Source: a candidate division WWE3 bacterium
Lineage (GTDB): Bacteria; Patescibacteriota; 4484-211; GCA-002791395
Length of the DNA: 64,000 nt
Assembly (NCBI GenBank): GCA_013335095.1
Contig: JAAXWF010000001.1
Span: forward strand, 445,984-509,983
Direction: 5' to 3'
Shown here piece by piece: positions 15,001 through 21,000 of this stretch; the first letter of the stretch is position 1; every line of letters begins with the position of its first letter. Made by a program: the position numbers.

Positions 15001-18000
15001 CGGTCGTGAGTTTTCAGTTAAATCGCGACGATGACATGAAAACCTTGAACAAACAGGTGTTTGATCATGATTTCACGACCGATGTGATTTCTTTTCCAAT
15101 GGCAACCCCTTTACCCAACAATCAAGACTATTTAGGCGAAATTGTCGTTAATCAAGATCAGGTAAAACGAAATGCAGAAGAATTTGGCGTTAGTTATGCC
15201 CAGGAACTGGCTCGAGTCGTAGCTCATGGCGTACTTCATTTACTAGGATATGAAGACGATACCCCCGAAAAAAAAGCTAAAATGACCGCCATTGAAGATG
15301 CGGTAGTTAGAGAGGTAAAATAGGATTTCATGGTATCGTATTTAATTCGCCGTATTAAATCGTTTGGGTATGCATTAGAAGGGATTGCATACACGATAAA
15401 ATATCATCCGAGTATATTAATTCAACTTTTTGCCACATTTGTTGTGGTTGTGCTTGGTTTAACTCTAGATATAAAAACCCAAGAATGGGTAGCATTGTTA
15501 CTCACTATTTTTATGGTCCTTACCACTGAGCTTATAAATACTGCGATTGAAGTAACACTCGATCATATGACTAAGGATCATCATCTGCGGGTGAAATACG
15601 CTAAAGATGTTGCTGCTGGAGCTGTTCTTATTATGTCGATCGGTTCAGTCATTATTGGTTGGCTAATCTTTTTGCCGTATCTTAGTAATCTTCTCTTTAT
15701 TTATAGTTGAACTAATTTAATCCCATAGCTTTTATTTTCGGGGTGTGATATATCTATGCTGATCTTCGTCATCTGGCGTTTGGAGGATTGAAGCTCTGTA
15801 TGAGCGCAAAAGGAGGTCTGTCTTATGGACGATCGACAAGGAGTCGTGCTTTCGACTGTTCTCGGTCAACTTCGGGCATATCGGCCGTTTCCAACGGAAT
15901 TTCCCGATCGGTGGCACGTCGAGGTCGAAGGACAGCTCAAGATTGAGCTGGCGCCAGGCTGGTATCCGCATGTTTTCTATCATCACATCGAAGATCATTC
16001 GGATAACCCCGCCTACGGCATTCAGATTGCTTCGGCGATCATCGCAATGGTGCTCCTTTCACTAAAGGTTCTCCATCCGGGTCTGCCAGAAAGCCTTTTC
16101 AAAGCCATCGAGTACTATGCGACGGAGCTTCAGGCGTCGCTGGCTAACACCGTTCGTACAATCACTCCGGATGTGATTGTCGAATAGAACGATCAATTAC
16201 GGTCCGGACTTTCTTTCCATTATGGGGAGAATGTCCGGTTTTTCAAAATTGCCAGAAGTGGTAACTTATAGTATTATTAACCCGCAGTTGTAAGGGGTGA
16301 TAAGTGAATTAATATAAAGTTCATTTTTCGGCCCTTATAAGGCTGCCAGCTTTCAGCTGGCTTGTGGAGTGCATAGCACACGAAGGGAGACCCGCGATGC
16401 GTGTCGTACATGCGAGCCTCTTTCCGGTGGCGAATGCCCTGCTCGATTCCGGTCGAGTCGATGCGGTCCTGGTACCGCAAGGGATGGACGATGGACCACA
16501 GTCGGTGTTTGCCGTCTGTGGGGATTCATTGACTTTCCGCATTTTCTCTCAGCTCGGTTTAGATGCTGTGACCTTTCCGGTTGAGCTCGGAGAATATCCG
16601 GTGCTGAACATTCGGGGTACGGTCGAACTGGTCGGACGCGTTCTGCACGAGGCCGATCTTGCTGCTATTTCATGGATTCCCTCCGGGGATGATATGCTCG
16701 TCGCAGTGATGGGGCCAGAGATCGAGGGGCTAGATCTCGCTGATGTCGAGCTCTGCGTCGAGGAGGTCATATAAGTAAAAAGGCGCTTAAGCGCTAAGGT
16801 GTAAAACATAACGGCCGGGCTATTCTCGTATGAGAATGGCCCGGATTTTCATATTGATCAAGGAAAGCTTATTCCAGAAAATAATTTTCCCTTGCCCAAT
16901 AGGGAAGTCGGGAGATCTTTCCCGGCGGCTCCGAGTAATCGGGGTTTGGAATATCCGTCTATAGGAGGGCATTTGCTCATGAATGGACATTGGCAAGGAC
17001 CGTCCCTGACGGTGGCGATTGTCGGAGACCTCGTCGCCCGTAGTGATTCAACCAGCCTTTTGGGTGTTGGTGCCGATGTCGTAATCGTCGAGTATTGTGA
17101 CGATGCTCGGCCGTGGTGCCATCTGTACTGTCGTGACGTGGACGTGAGTGCACGCATCATGTCGGTGGATGGCAAGGCCAGCATGGTTCTCAAACAGCCC
17201 GAAGGATCAGTGCGAGTGCTCCTAATCGAGGAGTCCTGCGCTACGGTAGTCAATCGACTTCGACGGGCGGGGGCGATTAATTCGCAACCGGCACAGTCGT
17301 TGGTTCACGAAGACGCACCGGTGATCTTGGTGGTCGGGGTTGCGTCGCTGATCGGGCTTATCCAGCAGGATGCCCTTCCCGCGGATCGGTTTATCGATCT
17401 TATACGCCGGGAAAAGCTGCTGATGATCGTCGAGGAGCCGATCGATTCGGTGATCAACTCAATCGGCGTCATTCGCCCTGATTTGACCGAACTGATGAGG
17501 CTCTTGGTTTCTCTTGGGATGGTGATCGACATCGCCCTCTCACTTCCCAGTGACTGGATGAGGCCTCTTAATGGGTGGCTTAATCTTCATGGACTGACAC
17601 CGCCTCGGGCAACCGAGCGTGTACGTTTTGAAGAGATCGCCAGCCTGGTTCATGAGGCTAATCCAAATCGAATGATCGTGTTTGCCGCTGCCGGCATGAC
17701 GGTCACTCGGTATCAGATGTCTCTCATCGACTAAGGGGTAGCAACAGAGGAATACGAGGCGGGCCGGTGCGATATCGGTCCGCCTTCATGTATCAGAAGG
17801 AGTCCATTCTATGGATGAGAGAACTGCCGATGCGTTAAAGCTCGCATTCATTGGGCGATTCGTAGCCGAACGTAAGCCGCGTCAGCACGAATACTGGCTG
17901 GAAAAGTCTCGCCGATCGGCCGTGCCAGTTGATGTTCATGCACAAATTCGCCAAGCCCTAGAGGAATCGGGGGCTGATCGCAACATTACCAGCCTTTCCC

Positions 18001-21000
18001 AGACGGCTATGCTGTGGGGGGAAGCGTGGGCGCAGCTGTCAGGCCGTCGGTTTGGTCTGGCGGCAGAAGCACATTATGGTATGGTGTATGTCTTCACCAT
18101 CTGCGCTTTTAAGCGCTACGACGAGACTCGTGCTCGTTTTGAGCGAATTAAAGCGCAGGGTGATTCCGGGGTTTTCGACCTTACCGTGCTCGATGCGTTG
18201 GGCATCATCACTGCTGAAAGCGACAGTGAGGAACTGGTCCGCAAGTGGGACCGCTTCATAGTTGGCTCGACGCAGTACCATACAATGGCGGATGTCGCCG
18301 CTGAACTGGATCAGATCATCGAGCGCCAGCATCAGCGGGCGATGGCGACGATGCTCAACATGCTTATCCAAACGACACTGGCTCTTGAGCCGCGTCGTTT
18401 CGGGAGAGGGACACTCGCCTTCGCTATGAGCGTTTTGTCCGCGAAGCATGCGTCACCGGCCCGGTTACTGCGGGTCGAGCAGGTGATCGAAGACTACTTT
18501 AGCTCAAAGTCTTCTTCGCCTGAGATGTAGGGTTCATTCTAATCGGAGGCCCGGACAGTTTTACTGTTCGGGCTTTTTTTTGACATGATACTATTACGGT
18601 ATGAAACTTCTTGTAGGGCTGGGCAATCCCGATGAGTCCTATGCAAAAACTCGACACAATGTGGGGCACCTGTTAATCGATGAAATTAATCAGCTTGAAG
18701 GTTGGAAATTAGAAAAGAATAATACGTTCATGAATTCATCGGGTAAAGCTGTTCGAGAATTGTTATCTTACTATCATTTAACTCCTCAGGATCTTGTTGT
18801 TCTTCATGATGATTGGGTGTTTGAACTGGGCACATTCAAAGTTCAACGTAATCGTGGCGCGAGTGGGCATAATGGGGTTCAAAACATTATTGATGTTCTT
18901 GGGACAAAAGATTTTTGGCGAATACGGGTAGGTATTGGGGCTAAACCAGATCACACAATATTAGGCGATTATGTTCTGAGTAATTTTAAAACACAGGAAT
19001 TAAATGCGATAAAGGCACTATCAATACCAATTGTAGATGCATTAAAGCAAATCCCATTCGAGGGCTGAATCTTTACTCTTGTGCTCTGCTTTTTCAAGCA
19101 TAGAATAATAACGTATGTCTGAAGTTTTATACCGAAAATACCGACCGCATGCATTTGACGAAGTTTGTGGACAAGACCACATAAAACGTATTTTGCAATC
19201 AGCTTTAGCTGCCGATCAGGTTGCTCATGCATACTTGTTTTCTGGACCTCGTGGTGTAGGTAAAACCAGTATCGCCCGAATCCTTGCCCGGGCATTGGAC
19301 GTACAGGGCGTGGATCTTGTTGAAATCGATGCTGCCAGCCATCGTGGTATCGAAGATGTCCGCGAAATAAGAGAGTCGGTTAATTTCCATCCAACTCAAG
19401 GTGAGCGAAAACTGTATATCCTCGATGAAGTCCACATGTTAACCAACGAAGCATTTAACGCGTTGCTAAAAACTCTAGAAGAACCACCTTCATTTGTCTA
19501 TTTTGTCCTTTGTACGACAGAATCACACAAGGTTCCTCTAACAATATTGTCTAGGTGTCAGCGGTTGAATTTCATTAGTCCTACGACCGATGAAATGGCA
19601 GGATTTTTAAAAAAGATTGCGGCAGACGAGGGCTCTGTTTTGGATGATGAAGCCTCTCGTATTATAGTCGAATTAGCCGAGGGATCATTTCGCGATGCAC
19701 TTGTCATTTTAGATCAAGCGCTTCGTTCGGCATCGTCTTTAGAAATTACGGTAGCTACAATGGAGTCGGGGATTGGACTAACCCCGTCTACACAAATAAC
19801 TGAATTGTTCAACTTGATTGTACAAAAGTCAAGACAAGGCTTTGTGGATAAGGTTAATTCGCTTAGAAATGGCGGTGCAGATATGAAGGTTGTGTCGAGC
19901 AAGATTGTTGCTCGATTGTCGGAGGAGATTCTCAAAGGCGAGGTTGAATCGGCCGCTAGCGATAATTTTTTAACATTATTAGATTATCTGCTCGAGTCTC
20001 GTCGTCAGATGCAATATGTGAGTTCACCATGGATGCCTTTTGTGGTCGCTGTATTAAAATGGATGGATGGTTCCCCGCAGACAAAAAAAAATCCAGTAAC
20101 TCCGCTATCACACCCAAATCCTAAAGTAGAAGAATCAAAACAAGTAGAAGCAACTGATCCTCAGATAACTTCCAAACGGGAAGATGTTATTTCAAATCAA
20201 GATCCTCAAGCTGCGCCTATAAATCAACCTTTTACTAACTCGACGATTGAAGTTTCAAAATCAATAGAGATACCAATTCCACCAATTAATGTCGTCCTCT
20301 CTGAATCCGGTTCATTAAGCAACGATATTATAAGTATTTGGCCCCAAGTTATGGATGAAATTAAAAAGGAAAAGCGTACCGTTGAAGCTCTTTTAAAGGA
20401 TTGTACCGTTCTTGGGCTAAATGAATCAGGCCAACTTTTATTGGACTTTAAATTTGAATTCCACAAGAAAAAAGTAGAAGAAAACAATAATCGGGCAGTT
20501 CTCGAAGGTGTGGTCGGCCGCCTTCTTGGCCGAAATATTACCGTGGTATGTCAGTGGAAAAAGGGTGATCGCCAAATGTCTACCGATGTGGATATTTTGA
20601 TAGAAGATCCGAATGCAGTTATCGTAGATCGATCTGCGTATGGAAGTGGTAAACCCGGAAAAGCTAAAAGTGATTTTCCCATGGCTCGAAGAAAAGAGCA
20701 CGCTCCTACAAGCTCCTCTGGTGATAAAGATCTCCTTGCTATGGCTCAAGAAGTGTTTGGCGGTCAAATGATCGAGTAGATAATTTCATCCCTGTGCTAC
20801 AATAAACCCATAGTCAATTAAGTCGGTTCATATACACAGGAGGGTCCTATGGACGCAGGTGCTGATGTTAGCAGACGGAGTGAGGATACTGAGTCTCTAC
20901 CGTGGAGAGATGTGATAAAACAAATCCCTCTCTATCGTTGGGTCCAGCTACTCGCCATTACGTTGGCAGTGCTGGATGTCTATTTCCTTGGCCTGCGGGT

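What the first reader, a model, noticed from the sequence alone, without database searches (positions are those of the whole stretch)
15711..18600. Four-gene high-GC block between the dgkA-family gene and pth
Four consecutive plus-strand high-GC ORFs (15825-16187, 16397-16774, 16979-17734, 17811-18530) each have their own SD. They are separated by hairpin-rich spacers (for example 16811-16847 ggccgggctattctc..gagaatggcccgg) and end in a perfect terminator (18549-18581). None matches a family I recognise. The block could be a compact accessory module such as a defence or host-interaction cassette, acquired as a unit.
Basis: inference. Interest (0 to 1): 0.6.

Follow-up and report, generated by a model that had tools for sequence, protein, structure and literature searches.

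The report
GC-rich orphan gene cassettes in WWE3
The four GC-rich genes are real but of unknown function, and they are not a special unit: they are one of many places where this tiny candidate-phylum (WWE3) bacterium has fast-evolving orphan genes, most with their own terminator, wedged between housekeeping genes that are adjacent in a relative.

Summary
Four plus-strand ORFs (15825-16187, 16397-16774, 16979-17734, 17811-18530) have 53-57% GC in a roughly 40% GC backbone. Each has a Shine-Dalgarno site and a downstream hairpin. None matches Pfam, NCBIfam, PHROGs, PADLOC, PDB sequences, or phage or plasmid records.

The "compact module acquired as a unit" reading is not supported.
- The window is a candidate division WWE3 genome. 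It carries at least 13 more GC-rich ORFs of the same anatomy, and only one of them (a PadR-like regulator) matches a Pfam family. They sit between core genes that are directly adjacent in another WWE3 genome, where dgkA and pth are 58 bp apart.
- 15 of 17 GC-rich ORFs have their own terminator, against 5 of 45 backbone genes. This is the anatomy of phage "morons", but in a cellular chromosome.
- A sister lineage (contig L005) has orthologues of ORF1-3 at the same site, with two extra orphan genes interleaved. So the content turns over gene by gene.

The ORFs are real genes: codon positions 1+2 are more conserved than position 3. They evolve about 4-9 times faster than ybeY.

Two features are unexplained.
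- Four-fold sites are saturated between the two lineages, yet stay about 64% GC in both. The GC is therefore maintained, not a fading foreign signal.
- The coding regions fold more stably than synonymous-shuffled controls.

Function remains unknown.

The parts
15825..16187 (+). ORF1, 120 aa (GenBank NTV30819.1). An acidic, soluble orphan protein. It has no terminator upstream, so it is probably read through from the S21-ybeY-dgkA operon.
   Evidence: ORF and GC 0.526. The orthologue at L005:1623-1982 is 48% identical, with conserved blocks PDRWHVE, ELAPGWY, VLLSLK and TPDV. dN 0.42, dS 1.64; identity at codon positions 1+2 is 0.67 against 0.45 at position 3. No family hit.
16203..16245 (+). 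Intrinsic terminator after ORF1: stem CCGGAC...GTCCGG followed by TTTTT.
   Evidence: Fold energy -21.7 kcal/mol, z -3.0. Also found by my terminator scan.
16249..16396 (+). Promoter (TTGCCA-17-TATTAT) and a structured leader of about 115 nt ahead of ORF2.
   Evidence: Promoter scan. The 16-nt -10 block CTTATAGTATTATTAA is invariant in L005, and blastn gives 69% identity over 225 nt. The consensus fold has 2 compensatory pairs, from only 2 sequences.
16397..16774 (+). ORF2, 125 aa (NTV30820.1). Very acidic (pI 4.1) with no lysine. Orphan protein.
   Evidence: The orthologue at L005:2190-2528 is 42-44% identical. dN 0.58, with position-3 identity 0.30. The only outside similarity is a weak profile hit to the end of the KtrA RCK_N domain, E 0.0035.
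16815..16844 (+). Terminator-like 13-bp hairpin after ORF2.
   Evidence: -32.5 kcal/mol for the spacer, z -4.3.
16878..16960 (+). Conserved structured leader ahead of ORF3. It contains the hairpin or inverted repeat TTCCCTTGCCCAATAGGGAA (16887-16906), followed by two further hairpins.
   Evidence: A 28-nt stretch is 96% identical in L005. The motif is unique in the window. The three-hairpin fold has -42.2 kcal/mol, z -3.25. Three compensatory pairs are seen against L005.
16979..17734 (+). ORF3, 251 aa. It has a conserved N-terminal alpha/beta domain (about residues 10-105, motif DDxxPWCHL[YF]C) and a lineage-specific C-terminal half.
   Evidence: An exhaustive HMMER search found only itself and P0130 (E 1e-7, residues 10-105), plus P0131 (447 aa, E 8.5e-4, five short repetitive stretches), which I take to be a low-complexity match. 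P0130 is encoded at the same locus in L005. AF2 gives pLDDT 73-84 over roughly residues 31-100 and below 50 for 103-251. Foldseek gave no fold match, TM no higher than 0.25.
17758..17785 (+). 14-bp hairpin between ORF3 and ORF4, with no U run. ORF4 is probably co-transcribed with ORF3.
   Evidence: No promoter-like site lies in the 76-nt spacer.
17811..18530 (+). ORF4, 239 aa (NTV30822.1). Predicted all-helical orphan protein with no homologue found anywhere.
   Evidence: The word-index search returned only itself. Nothing in viral contigs, phages or plasmids, or PDB sequences. AF2 is all helix with mean pLDDT 45.5.
18546..18589 (+). Strong intrinsic terminator closing the block: stem GGAGGCCCGGACAG/CUGUUCGGGCUUUU followed by a U run.
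   Evidence: Fold energy -27.3 kcal/mol, z -6.0. Also found.

Best explanation
The block is a pile-up of independently terminated, "moron-like" orphan gene cassettes. They sit at an operon boundary (dgkA|pth) of a candidate division WWE3 (CPR/Patescibacteria) chromosome. It is one of many such sites in this lineage, not a dedicated four-gene module.

Shown:
- The flanking genes are adjacent in a collinear relative.
- The four ORFs are real, translated-type genes that encode soluble, acidic, lysine-poor proteins with no known relatives.
- ORF1 to ORF3 were already at this site in the common ancestor with a sister lineage. Since then they have diverged 4-9 times faster than ybeY at the protein level.
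- Neighbouring orphan genes were gained or lost one at a time.

Inferred transcription layout:
- ORF1 is read through from the S21-ybeY-dgkA operon and stopped by its own terminator.
- ORF2 has its own promoter, a structured leader and a terminator.
- ORF3 has a conserved structured leader and is co-transcribed with ORF4 up to the final terminator.

Inferred composition:
- The high GC is not a decaying trace of recent transfer. Silent sites are saturated between the two lineages, yet both keep about 64% GC against 39% in the backbone.
- The coding regions carry more local base-pairing than synonymous shuffles.
- The most economical reading is a persistent gene-specific force. Selection for structured, GC-rich mRNA is my first choice, and GC-biased conversion at recombining accessory loci the second.

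Function (low confidence, inference only): dispensable, rapidly evolving cytoplasmic proteins of the kind usually tied to conflict or niche adaptation. Each acts on its own rather than as one machine.
For: Organism and source: the genes carry GenBank HGA91_ locus tags and are named candidate division WWE3. An identical Logan contig exists.

Insertion into a conserved backbone:
- L003 (GCA_020429745.1) has the order PBP-dprA-M50-RRF-Ts-S2-topA-S21-ybeY-dgkA-pth-dnaX-ybaB-recR-cysS-PaaX-S6-SSB-S18 with no inserts.
- The window has the same order, with GC-rich ORFs at PBP|dprA, S2|topA, dgkA|pth, dnaX|ybaB, recR|cysS, S18|next and after htrA.

Cassette anatomy and composition:
- 15 of 17 GC-rich ORFs have a hairpin plus T-rich tail downstream, against 5 of 45 backbone genes; Fisher p = 2e-8.
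- GC3 is 0.46-0.74 in the GC-rich ORFs against 0.26-0.41 in the backbone, with no overlap.
- The dinucleotide signature distance from the backbone is 94, against a baseline of 31 +/- 10.
- Of the 17 GC-rich ORFs only one, a PadR-like regulator, has a Pfam family. Alternative frames have none.

Sister lineage L005:
- YbeY is 87% identical and DgkA 65-67%.
- The orthologues of ORF1, ORF2 and ORF3N are 48, 42-44 and 35% identical, at the same site.
- Extra orphan ORFs of 105 aa and 158 aa are present only in L005.
- Coding is supported because identity at positions 1+2 exceeds position 3 in all three ORFs, and dN/dS for ORF1 is about 0.25.

Stationary GC at four-fold sites of conserved codons:
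- Island genes: identity 0.31 against 0.29 expected by chance; residual 0.04, CI -0.09 to 0.17; GC4 0.64, CI 0.56-0.72.
- Backbone genes: identity 0.39 against 0.27; GC4 0.39.

Structure excess, as mean z in 120-nt windows:
- -1.35 against dinucleotide shuffles, compared with -0.01 for the backbone; p = 4e-12.
- -1.06 against synonymous shuffles, compared with -0.04 for the backbone.
- -1.31 for the island ORFs of L005.
- Ordinary genes give -0.39 (phage D3, 59% GC) and -0.48 (E. coli). Welch p = 1e-4 against these controls.
Against: - Only one sister-lineage contig (3.7 kb) exists. Every evolutionary inference rests on two sequences and about 80 four-fold sites.
- ORF4 has no orthologue to test, so its coding status rests on ORF length, its SD site and its terminator.
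- Ordinary mid-GC genes already show about 40% of the structure excess. Two GC-rich ORFs (7032-7601 and 24069-24758) show none.
- The spacers in the block are themselves GC-enriched (0.455 against 0.337 in backbone spacers). The GC shift is therefore not strictly confined to coding sequence.
- Conserved gene order ORF1-ORF2-ORF3 in two lineages could reflect functional linkage rather than mere inheritance.
- No expression or protein data exist.
- The ultimate origin (foreign or de novo) is unresolved.
Confidence: 0.6

Rival explanations
1. The four genes form one functional accessory module, such as an anti-phage defence or host-interaction cassette, that arrived in a single transfer event and works as a unit.
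For: - The four ORFs are adjacent, on the same strand and similar in GC (0.53-0.57).
- ORF1-ORF2-ORF3 order is kept in L005.
- ORF3 and ORF4 are probably co-transcribed.
- Rapid divergence is typical of conflict genes.
- There is a hint, not significant, that ORF2 and the ORF3 N-domain are distant paralogues (hhalign P 0.07).
Against: - No PADLOC, PHROG, Pfam or NCBIfam hit.
- Terminators and a promoter lie between the genes.
- L005 has two unrelated ORFs interleaved and a truncated ORF3.
- No integrase, no tRNA and no flanking repeats.
- At least 13 single-gene cassettes of the same kind occur elsewhere in the window.
- No signal peptides.
Confidence: 0.1
2. Plain recent horizontal transfer. 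The ORFs were taken from one or more organisms or mobile elements of roughly 58-60% GC and have not yet drifted to the recipient's composition. Nothing maintains the GC.
For: - GC1, GC2 and GC3 of about 0.63, 0.43 and 0.59 fit the codon-position pattern of genes from a 54-60% GC genome. This uses the Muto-Osawa / Lawrence-Ochman relations from my own knowledge.
- Amino-acid usage is Arg-rich and poor in Lys and Asn, and the dinucleotide signature is distinct.
- Genomic islands are documented in Patescibacteria, with up to 13% of genome length attributed to horizontal transfer (PMC12455944).
Against: - The orthologues are at the same site in a lineage whose backbone four-fold sites are nearly saturated (residual 0.17). 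The island four-fold sites are fully saturated (residual 0.04), yet GC4 is 0.64 in both lineages.
- Under a simple one-rate (F81-type) model this would need an ancestral GC4 above 0.9-1.0 (my inference).
- No donor homologue exists among 1.8 billion representative proteins for ORF3, nor in phage, plasmid or viral sets for all four.
- There are no mobility genes and no att repeats.
Confidence: 0.15
3. De novo birth. GC-rich, hairpin-rich intergenic DNA (terminator or palindrome expansions at operon boundaries) became open reading frames that were later recruited as genes. This would explain the orphan status and the excess of self-complementarity.
For: - No homologues outside the lineage.
- The ORFs sit exactly in intergenic positions.
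- Excess local pairing on both strands: sense z -1.06, antisense z -0.76.
- Raised Trp, Cys, His and Arg content.
- Low AF2 confidence.
Against: - ORFs of 239-423 codons are far longer than chance allows at 55% GC.
- Purifying selection and conserved motif blocks already existed in the common ancestor.
- Asp and Glu content is protein-like, not random.
- No source of GC-rich non-coding DNA is visible in relatives: L003 spacers are 36-58 bp.
- One member of the GC-rich set is a PadR-family regulator.
Confidence: 0.12
4. Annotation artefact. The GC-rich stretches are non-coding (structured RNA or selfish DNA), and the ORFs are open only because GC-rich DNA has few stop codons.
For: - Long antisense ORFs overlap them, for example 18039-18449(-) and 16858-17253(-).
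- Strong RNA-fold z-scores.
Against: - Codon position 3 is the least conserved in the annotated frame for ORF1-3.
- Amino-acid motif blocks are conserved.
- Each ORF has an SD site plus ATG, and the terminator orientation fits the plus strand.
- There are no Rfam hits.
Confidence: 0.03

Closest known systems
Phage "morons": autonomous promoter-gene-terminator units inserted between genes that are adjacent in related phages (definition as given in PMC4378225).
   Same: - Single coding regions, most with their own factor-independent terminator (15 of 17). Promoter-like -10 boxes appear upstream by eye, and one was confirmed by a scan and by conservation.
- They are inserted between genes that are adjacent in a related genome.
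- Their nucleotide composition differs from the neighbouring genes.
- The mechanism of acquisition is unknown and there is no recombinase signature.
   Different: - The recipient is a cellular chromosome, and the flanking genes are core housekeeping genes (dgkA, pth, dnaX, topA and others), not a prophage.
- There are no PHROG or viral-contig relatives.
- The atypical composition looks old and maintained rather than recent.
Lineage-specific ORFan genes and genomic islets in bacterial genomes. The general picture, from my own knowledge (Daubin and Ochman 2004), is that they are short, fast-evolving and usually AT-rich. For Patescibacteria islands see PMC12455944.
   Same: - No homologues, and fast protein evolution.
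- Absent from relatives.
- They make up a sizeable share of the sequence: about 9.4 kb of 64 kb is GC-rich orphan coding sequence.
   Different: - They are GC-rich by about 15-20 points rather than AT-rich.
- They are scattered as one- to four-gene cassettes at many operon boundaries instead of lying in large islands next to tRNA or integrase genes.
- Their silent-site composition is stationary across two lineages.
Integron gene-cassette arrays
   Same: A series of small, unrelated, same-strand ORFs separated by imperfect or perfect inverted repeats.
   Different: - The hairpins are GC stems with T tails (terminators), not attC sites.
- At least ORF2 has its own promoter, and other cassettes show -10-like boxes.
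- No integrase was found among the ORFs scanned.
- Cassettes are dispersed over many loci.
Defence islands and anti-phage systems (PADLOC catalogue)
   Same: A variable accessory locus with rapidly diverging proteins, flanked by conserved genes.
   Different: - No protein matches any of the 5027 PADLOC models.
- There are no nuclease, ATPase or other enzymatic domains.
- The genes are not organised as an operon.

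Membership tests
Moron-like autonomous cassette (phage moron definition, PMC4378225) | Inserted between two genes that are adjacent in related genomes | tested here: met
   dgkA and pth are 58 bp apart in WWE3 GCA_020429745.1 (L003), with the same gene order over about 18 kb. In the window they are 2.9 kb apart.
Moron-like autonomous cassette (phage moron definition, PMC4378225) | Own terminator, and own promoter, flanking a single coding region | tested here: inconclusive
   Terminators are clear after ORF1, ORF2 and ORF4, and after 15 of 17 GC-rich ORFs. A promoter is clear only for ORF2. ORF1 may use the upstream operon promoter. ORF4 probably shares ORF3's transcript.
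Moron-like autonomous cassette (phage moron definition, PMC4378225) | Nucleotide composition different from adjacent genes | tested here: met
   GC 0.53-0.57 against 0.36-0.39 in the adjacent genes, and GC3 0.55-0.61 against 0.29-0.31.
Moron-like autonomous cassette (phage moron definition, PMC4378225) | Resides in a phage or prophage genome | tested here: not met
   The flanking genes are S21, ybeY, dgkA, pth and dnaX. No PHROG hits and no viral-contig relatives. It therefore resembles a moron in anatomy only.
Classical horizontally acquired genomic island | Atypical composition and absence from related genomes | tested here: met
   However, the block is present in the sister lineage L005.
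Classical horizontally acquired genomic island | Mobility signatures: a flanking tRNA, direct repeats, or an integrase or transposase | tested here: not met
   There is no tRNA in the 64 kb. There are no flanking repeats beyond chance. No integrase or transposase domain was found in the ORFs scanned.
Anti-phage defence system | At least one protein matching a known defence family or carrying an effector or sensor domain | tested here: not met
   No PADLOC, Pfam or NCBIfam match for any of the four proteins.
Integron cassette array | attC recombination sites between promoterless cassettes, plus an IntI integrase | tested here: not met
   The inter-ORF hairpins are perfect GC stems with T tails. 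A promoter lies ahead of ORF2. No integrase was found.
Toxin-antitoxin pair (considered for ORF1/ORF2) | Two small genes co-transcribed as an operon, with family matches | tested here: not met
   A terminator and a promoter lie between ORF1 and ORF2. There are no family hits.
RCK/TrkA_N (Rossmann-type) domain (considered for ORF2) | Significant profile match and a glycine-rich nucleotide-binding loop | tested here: inconclusive
   A two-sequence profile hits KtrA chain 7zp9_H at E 0.0035 (domain i-E 0.035) over the end of RCK_N. There is no Pfam TrkA_N hit. The N-terminus MRVVHASLFPVANALLDSG lacks GxGxxG (read from the sequence).

The most novel reading that the evidence does not exclude
This WWE3 lineage carries a distinct class of genes that make up about 15% of the window. 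They are fast-evolving orphan cassettes, mostly with their own terminator, and their GC-rich, hairpin-rich coding sequence is actively maintained against the AT-biased background of the genome. That would imply a gene-specific compositional force. Candidates are selection for highly structured, long-lived or translation-throttled mRNAs, or GC-biased conversion or template-switch mutagenesis focused on accessory loci. The class might even be a nursery in which new genes arise from GC-rich structured intergenic DNA.
Probability: 0.3. Interest if true: 0.75.

Novelty: new variant of a known kind. Interest (0 to 1): 0.45.

Why it matters
- Orphan genes are a large, unexplained share of CPR/Patescibacteria genomes. 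Here they can be separated cleanly from the backbone by composition alone, and they have a clear cassette anatomy.
- If the GC-richness and extra mRNA structure are truly maintained, this is a natural case of two compositional regimes coexisting stably in one small genome. That bears on how bacterial GC content is set (mutation, selection or biased conversion) and on how new accessory genes are installed without mobile-element machinery.
- For annotation, a GC-rich patch in such a genome should not be read as a recent island or as a functional module.
- The four proteins themselves remain uncharacterised. They are only modestly interesting until a function or an expression condition is known.

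Tried and rejected
1. I searched a concatenation of the four proteins in the search for homologous proteins. It returned nothing, not even the proteins themselves, although single queries do return themselves. I treat it as a tool artefact and drew no conclusion from it.
2. Scans of genome contigs with ORF1 and YbeY profiles, and of metagenome contigs with ORF2 and YbeY profiles, found no relatives. This lineage is not in the GTDB representatives or the JGI metagenomes, so only one sister contig (Logan, L005) could be used.
3. 90% clusters of 18 window proteins are all singletons, apart from start-codon variants of the same gene. That gave no route to more sister contigs.
5. Paralogy among the GC-rich ORFs: only 28780-29190 and 29346-29759 are related. 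ORF2 against the ORF3 N-domain gave hhalign P 0.07, which is not significant.
6. Hidden known genes in other frames or on the other strand of the GC-rich DNA: none.
7. Shared regulatory motifs: the conserved leader motifs of ORF2 and ORF3 do not recur elsewhere in the window.
8. Rfam: nothing at gathering threshold. The sub-threshold Spot_42 and NsiR1 hits at 18472-18581 are just the terminator.
9. DGR, retron, integron and prophage explanations: the repeat scans show no template/variable repeat pair. No reverse transcriptase or integrase domain appeared in the ORFs scanned, and there are no phage families.
10. Literature searches for the MAG, the SRA runs, or GC-rich orphan genes in WWE3 found nothing specific.
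11. I first read the two-sequence "mean column identity" as pairwise identity. Corrected: spacers are about 58-69% identical, the island coding sequences 42-60%, and the backbone 75.6%.

Full report
**What is there.** The window is part of a 536-kb contig of a candidate division WWE3 (CPR/Patescibacteria) metagenome-assembled genome with locus tags HGA91_. A 12.6-kb Logan contig from run SRR11449211 is 100% identical to it. The four ORFs are at the stated coordinates.
- Their GC is 0.53-0.57 and their GC3 is 0.55-0.61. dgkA has GC 0.36 and pth 0.39.
- Each ORF has a Shine-Dalgarno site (read) and a stable hairpin downstream.
- The hairpins after ORF1 and ORF4 carry U runs. The one after ORF2 has a weaker U tail. 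The one after ORF3 has none.
- A sigma-70-like promoter (TTGCCA-17-TATTAT, 16249-16277) lies ahead of ORF2.

**No known family.** None of the four proteins matches Pfam, PHROGs, PADLOC or NCBIfam.
- They have no relatives among PDB sequences, phage or plasmid records, or IMG/VR contigs.
- An exhaustive HMMER search of ORF3 against 1.84 billion representatives found one real relative besides itself: P0130. A third hit, P0131 (E 8.5e-4, five short repetitive stretches), looks like low complexity.
- ORF4 found only itself.
- Structure prediction was confident only for the ORF3 N-domain (pLDDT 73-84). It gave no fold match, with TM no higher than 0.25.
- The only outside hint is a weak similarity of ORF2 to the end of the RCK_N domain of KtrA (E 0.0035). 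ORF2 lacks the glycine loop.

**The block is not unique.** The window is bimodal.
- About 45 backbone genes have GC3 of 0.26-0.41. The backbone genes scanned carry ordinary housekeeping or carbohydrate-active domains.
- Sixteen or seventeen other ORFs have GC3 of 0.46-0.74, with no overlap between the two sets (Mann-Whitney p = 4e-9).
- Only one of the GC-rich ORFs, a PadR-like regulator, has a Pfam family. Alternative frames hide nothing.
- The GC-rich ORFs are unrelated to each other, apart from one duplicated pair.

**Insertions into a conserved backbone.** The nearest DnaX relatives are only 38-43% identical, so this lineage is poorly sampled. Even so, WWE3 genome GCA_020429745.1 (L003) has exactly the window's backbone order, from the penicillin-binding protein to S18.
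- In L003 the genes abut or overlap: dgkA to pth is 58 bp, and pth overlaps dnaX.
- In the window the GC-rich ORFs sit at seven of these junctions.
- There is no tRNA, no integrase and no flanking repeat.
- 15 of 17 GC-rich ORFs are followed by a terminator-like hairpin, against 5 of 45 backbone genes (Fisher p = 2e-8). Most have a recognisable -10 box upstream.
- This is the textbook anatomy of phage "morons" (PMC4378225). Here, however, the recipient is a cellular chromosome and the neighbours are core genes.

**A sister lineage.** P0130 is encoded on a 3.7-kb Logan contig (L005, run SRR21121619). It reads S21-ybeY-dgkA followed by five GC-rich orphan ORFs.
- Backbone identity: YbeY 87%, DgkA 65-67%, and the S21 C-terminus 100%.
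- Three of the five ORFs are orthologues of ORF1 (48%), ORF2 (42-44%) and the ORF3 N-domain (35%), in the same order.
- Two further ORFs (105 aa on the minus strand, and 158 aa) have no counterpart in the window. ORF3 is 130 aa there.
- The locus therefore predates the split, and its content changes one gene at a time. This argues against a module acquired as a unit.
- Identity at codon positions 1+2 exceeds position 3 in all three orthologue pairs: 0.67 vs 0.45, 0.60 vs 0.30, and 0.51 vs 0.26.
- dN is 0.42-0.82, against 0.09 for ybeY. These are real proteins under purifying selection, but they evolve 4-9 times faster than ybeY.
- The conservation also shows that the GenBank start of ORF3 (174 aa) is too short.
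- Blocks of the leaders ahead of ORF2 and ORF3 are conserved, with a few compensatory pairs.

**Two unexplained properties.**

*Stationary GC.* I looked at four-fold degenerate sites in codons whose amino acid is conserved between the window and L005.
- Island genes show identity of 0.31 against 0.29 expected by chance, so these sites are saturated. Both lineages nevertheless keep GC4 of about 0.64.
- Backbone genes show 0.39 against 0.27, with GC4 of 0.39.
- Sites that have lost memory of their ancestral base should also have lost any foreign composition. On a simple one-rate model the ancestor would have needed GC4 above 0.9-1.0.
- I therefore infer that the GC-richness is maintained. The sample is small: about 80 sites and two lineages.

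*Excess structure.* The GC-rich coding regions fold more stably than controls.
- Mean z is -1.35 against dinucleotide shuffles and -1.06 against synonymous-codon shuffles. Backbone genes give about 0.
- The same holds in L005 (-1.31). It holds more weakly on the antisense strand (-0.76).
- Ordinary genes of phage D3 (59% GC) and E. coli give -0.4 to -0.5. About half of the effect is therefore specific (Welch p = 1e-4).
- The two properties fit together if synonymous sites are selected for base-pairing. GC-biased conversion or template-switch mutagenesis at variable loci are alternatives.

**How it most likely works.** The block holds three or four transcription units.
- ORF1 is probably appended to the S21-ybeY-dgkA operon and is stopped by its own terminator.
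- ORF2 has its own promoter, a structured leader of about 115 nt and a terminator.
- ORF3 has a conserved three-hairpin leader and is probably read through into ORF4, ending at the strong final terminator.

The products are soluble, acidic (pI 4.1-6.6) and lysine-poor, and they have no signal peptide. Their function is unknown. Fast evolution and dispensability suggest niche or conflict roles, but that is inference only.

**Verdict.** The block is one local cluster in a genome-wide set of GC-rich orphan cassettes. I rate it a new variant of a known kind (ORFan islets or morons). Interest is moderate (0.45). The upside is the possibility that a gene-specific force maintains the composition and structure of these genes.

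Noticed in passing
window 336-827, 7032-7601, 11788-12093, 20849-21655, 21749-22375, 24069-24758(-), 28780-29190, 29346-29759, 34641-35066(-), 45822-47093, 47586-48227, 48377-48757, 50015-50800: Thirteen further GC-rich ORFs (GC 0.47-0.62). Each lies between backbone genes and almost all have their own terminator. Twelve have no Pfam family. Several carry one or two predicted membrane segments. Together with the four-gene block they make up about 15% of the window.
   Followed up: partly
window 16878-16960 and 16278-16396; L005 3112-3190 and 2078-2189: Conserved, structured leaders lie ahead of ORF3 and ORF2. One is a 20-nt hairpin or inverted repeat, TTCCCTTGCCCAATAGGGAA, whose surrounding 28-nt stretch is 96% conserved in the sister lineage and which is unique in the window. 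It is followed by hairpins with compensatory changes. This could be a cis-regulatory RNA or an operator. There is no Rfam match.
   Followed up: partly
window 16979-17734: GenBank annotates this gene as 174 aa (NTV30821.1). Residues 10-105 of the 251-aa reading are conserved in the sister-lineage protein P0130, so the deposited start is too far downstream.
   Followed up: yes
window 48377-48757: This is the only GC-rich ORF with a known family: a PadR-like transcriptional regulator (E 2e-7). It is a candidate regulator of neighbouring cassettes.
   Followed up: no
window 28688-28761 and 29242-29315: A 74-nt direct repeat (82% identity) carrying a TATAAT-type promoter lies ahead of two paralogous GC-rich ORFs (28780-29190 and 29346-29759; C-termini 59% identical). 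This is a tandem duplication of a whole cassette including its promoter.
   Followed up: partly
window 42403-42825(-), 48800-49990(-), 53358-55373, 55374-57398, 58052-60685, 60741-63404: A cluster of large proteins carries type-I dockerin modules. They include an alginate-lyase domain, an apiosidase-like or DUF5060 domain, and PA14 or beta-helix domains. The 176-nt repeat family found in the window is this C-terminal dockerin module. Cellulosome-like secreted enzymes in a WWE3 genome may deserve a separate look.
   Followed up: no
window 18583-18603: pth has no Shine-Dalgarno sequence. A TACTAT box sits 7 nt upstream of its ATG, right after the ORF4 terminator, so pth may be expressed as a leaderless mRNA now that the insertion has cut it off from the upstream operon.
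   Followed up: no
L002 1814-2439 (Logan SRR17161165): A more distant WWE3 relative (DnaX 43% identical) also has two orphan ORFs between dnaX and ybaB. They are on the opposite strand and have backbone-like GC (0.42-0.44). The junction is a recurrent insertion site, but GC-richness is specific to the window's lineage.
   Followed up: partly
window 15905-15965 (inside ORF1): Synonymous positions are unusually conserved against L005 across the PDRWHVE...ELAPGWY region, including a 7-bp hairpin (CAGCTCAAGATTGAGCTG). This may be an RNA-level constraint inside the coding sequence.
   Followed up: no
window 23517-24002 and 45099-45815(-): Not every insertion is GC-rich. 23517-24002 (161 aa, GC 0.40, two predicted membrane segments) is absent from the relatives' recR|cysS junction. 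A lycopene-cyclase-domain protein at 45099-45815(-) has GC of only 0.33.
   Followed up: no
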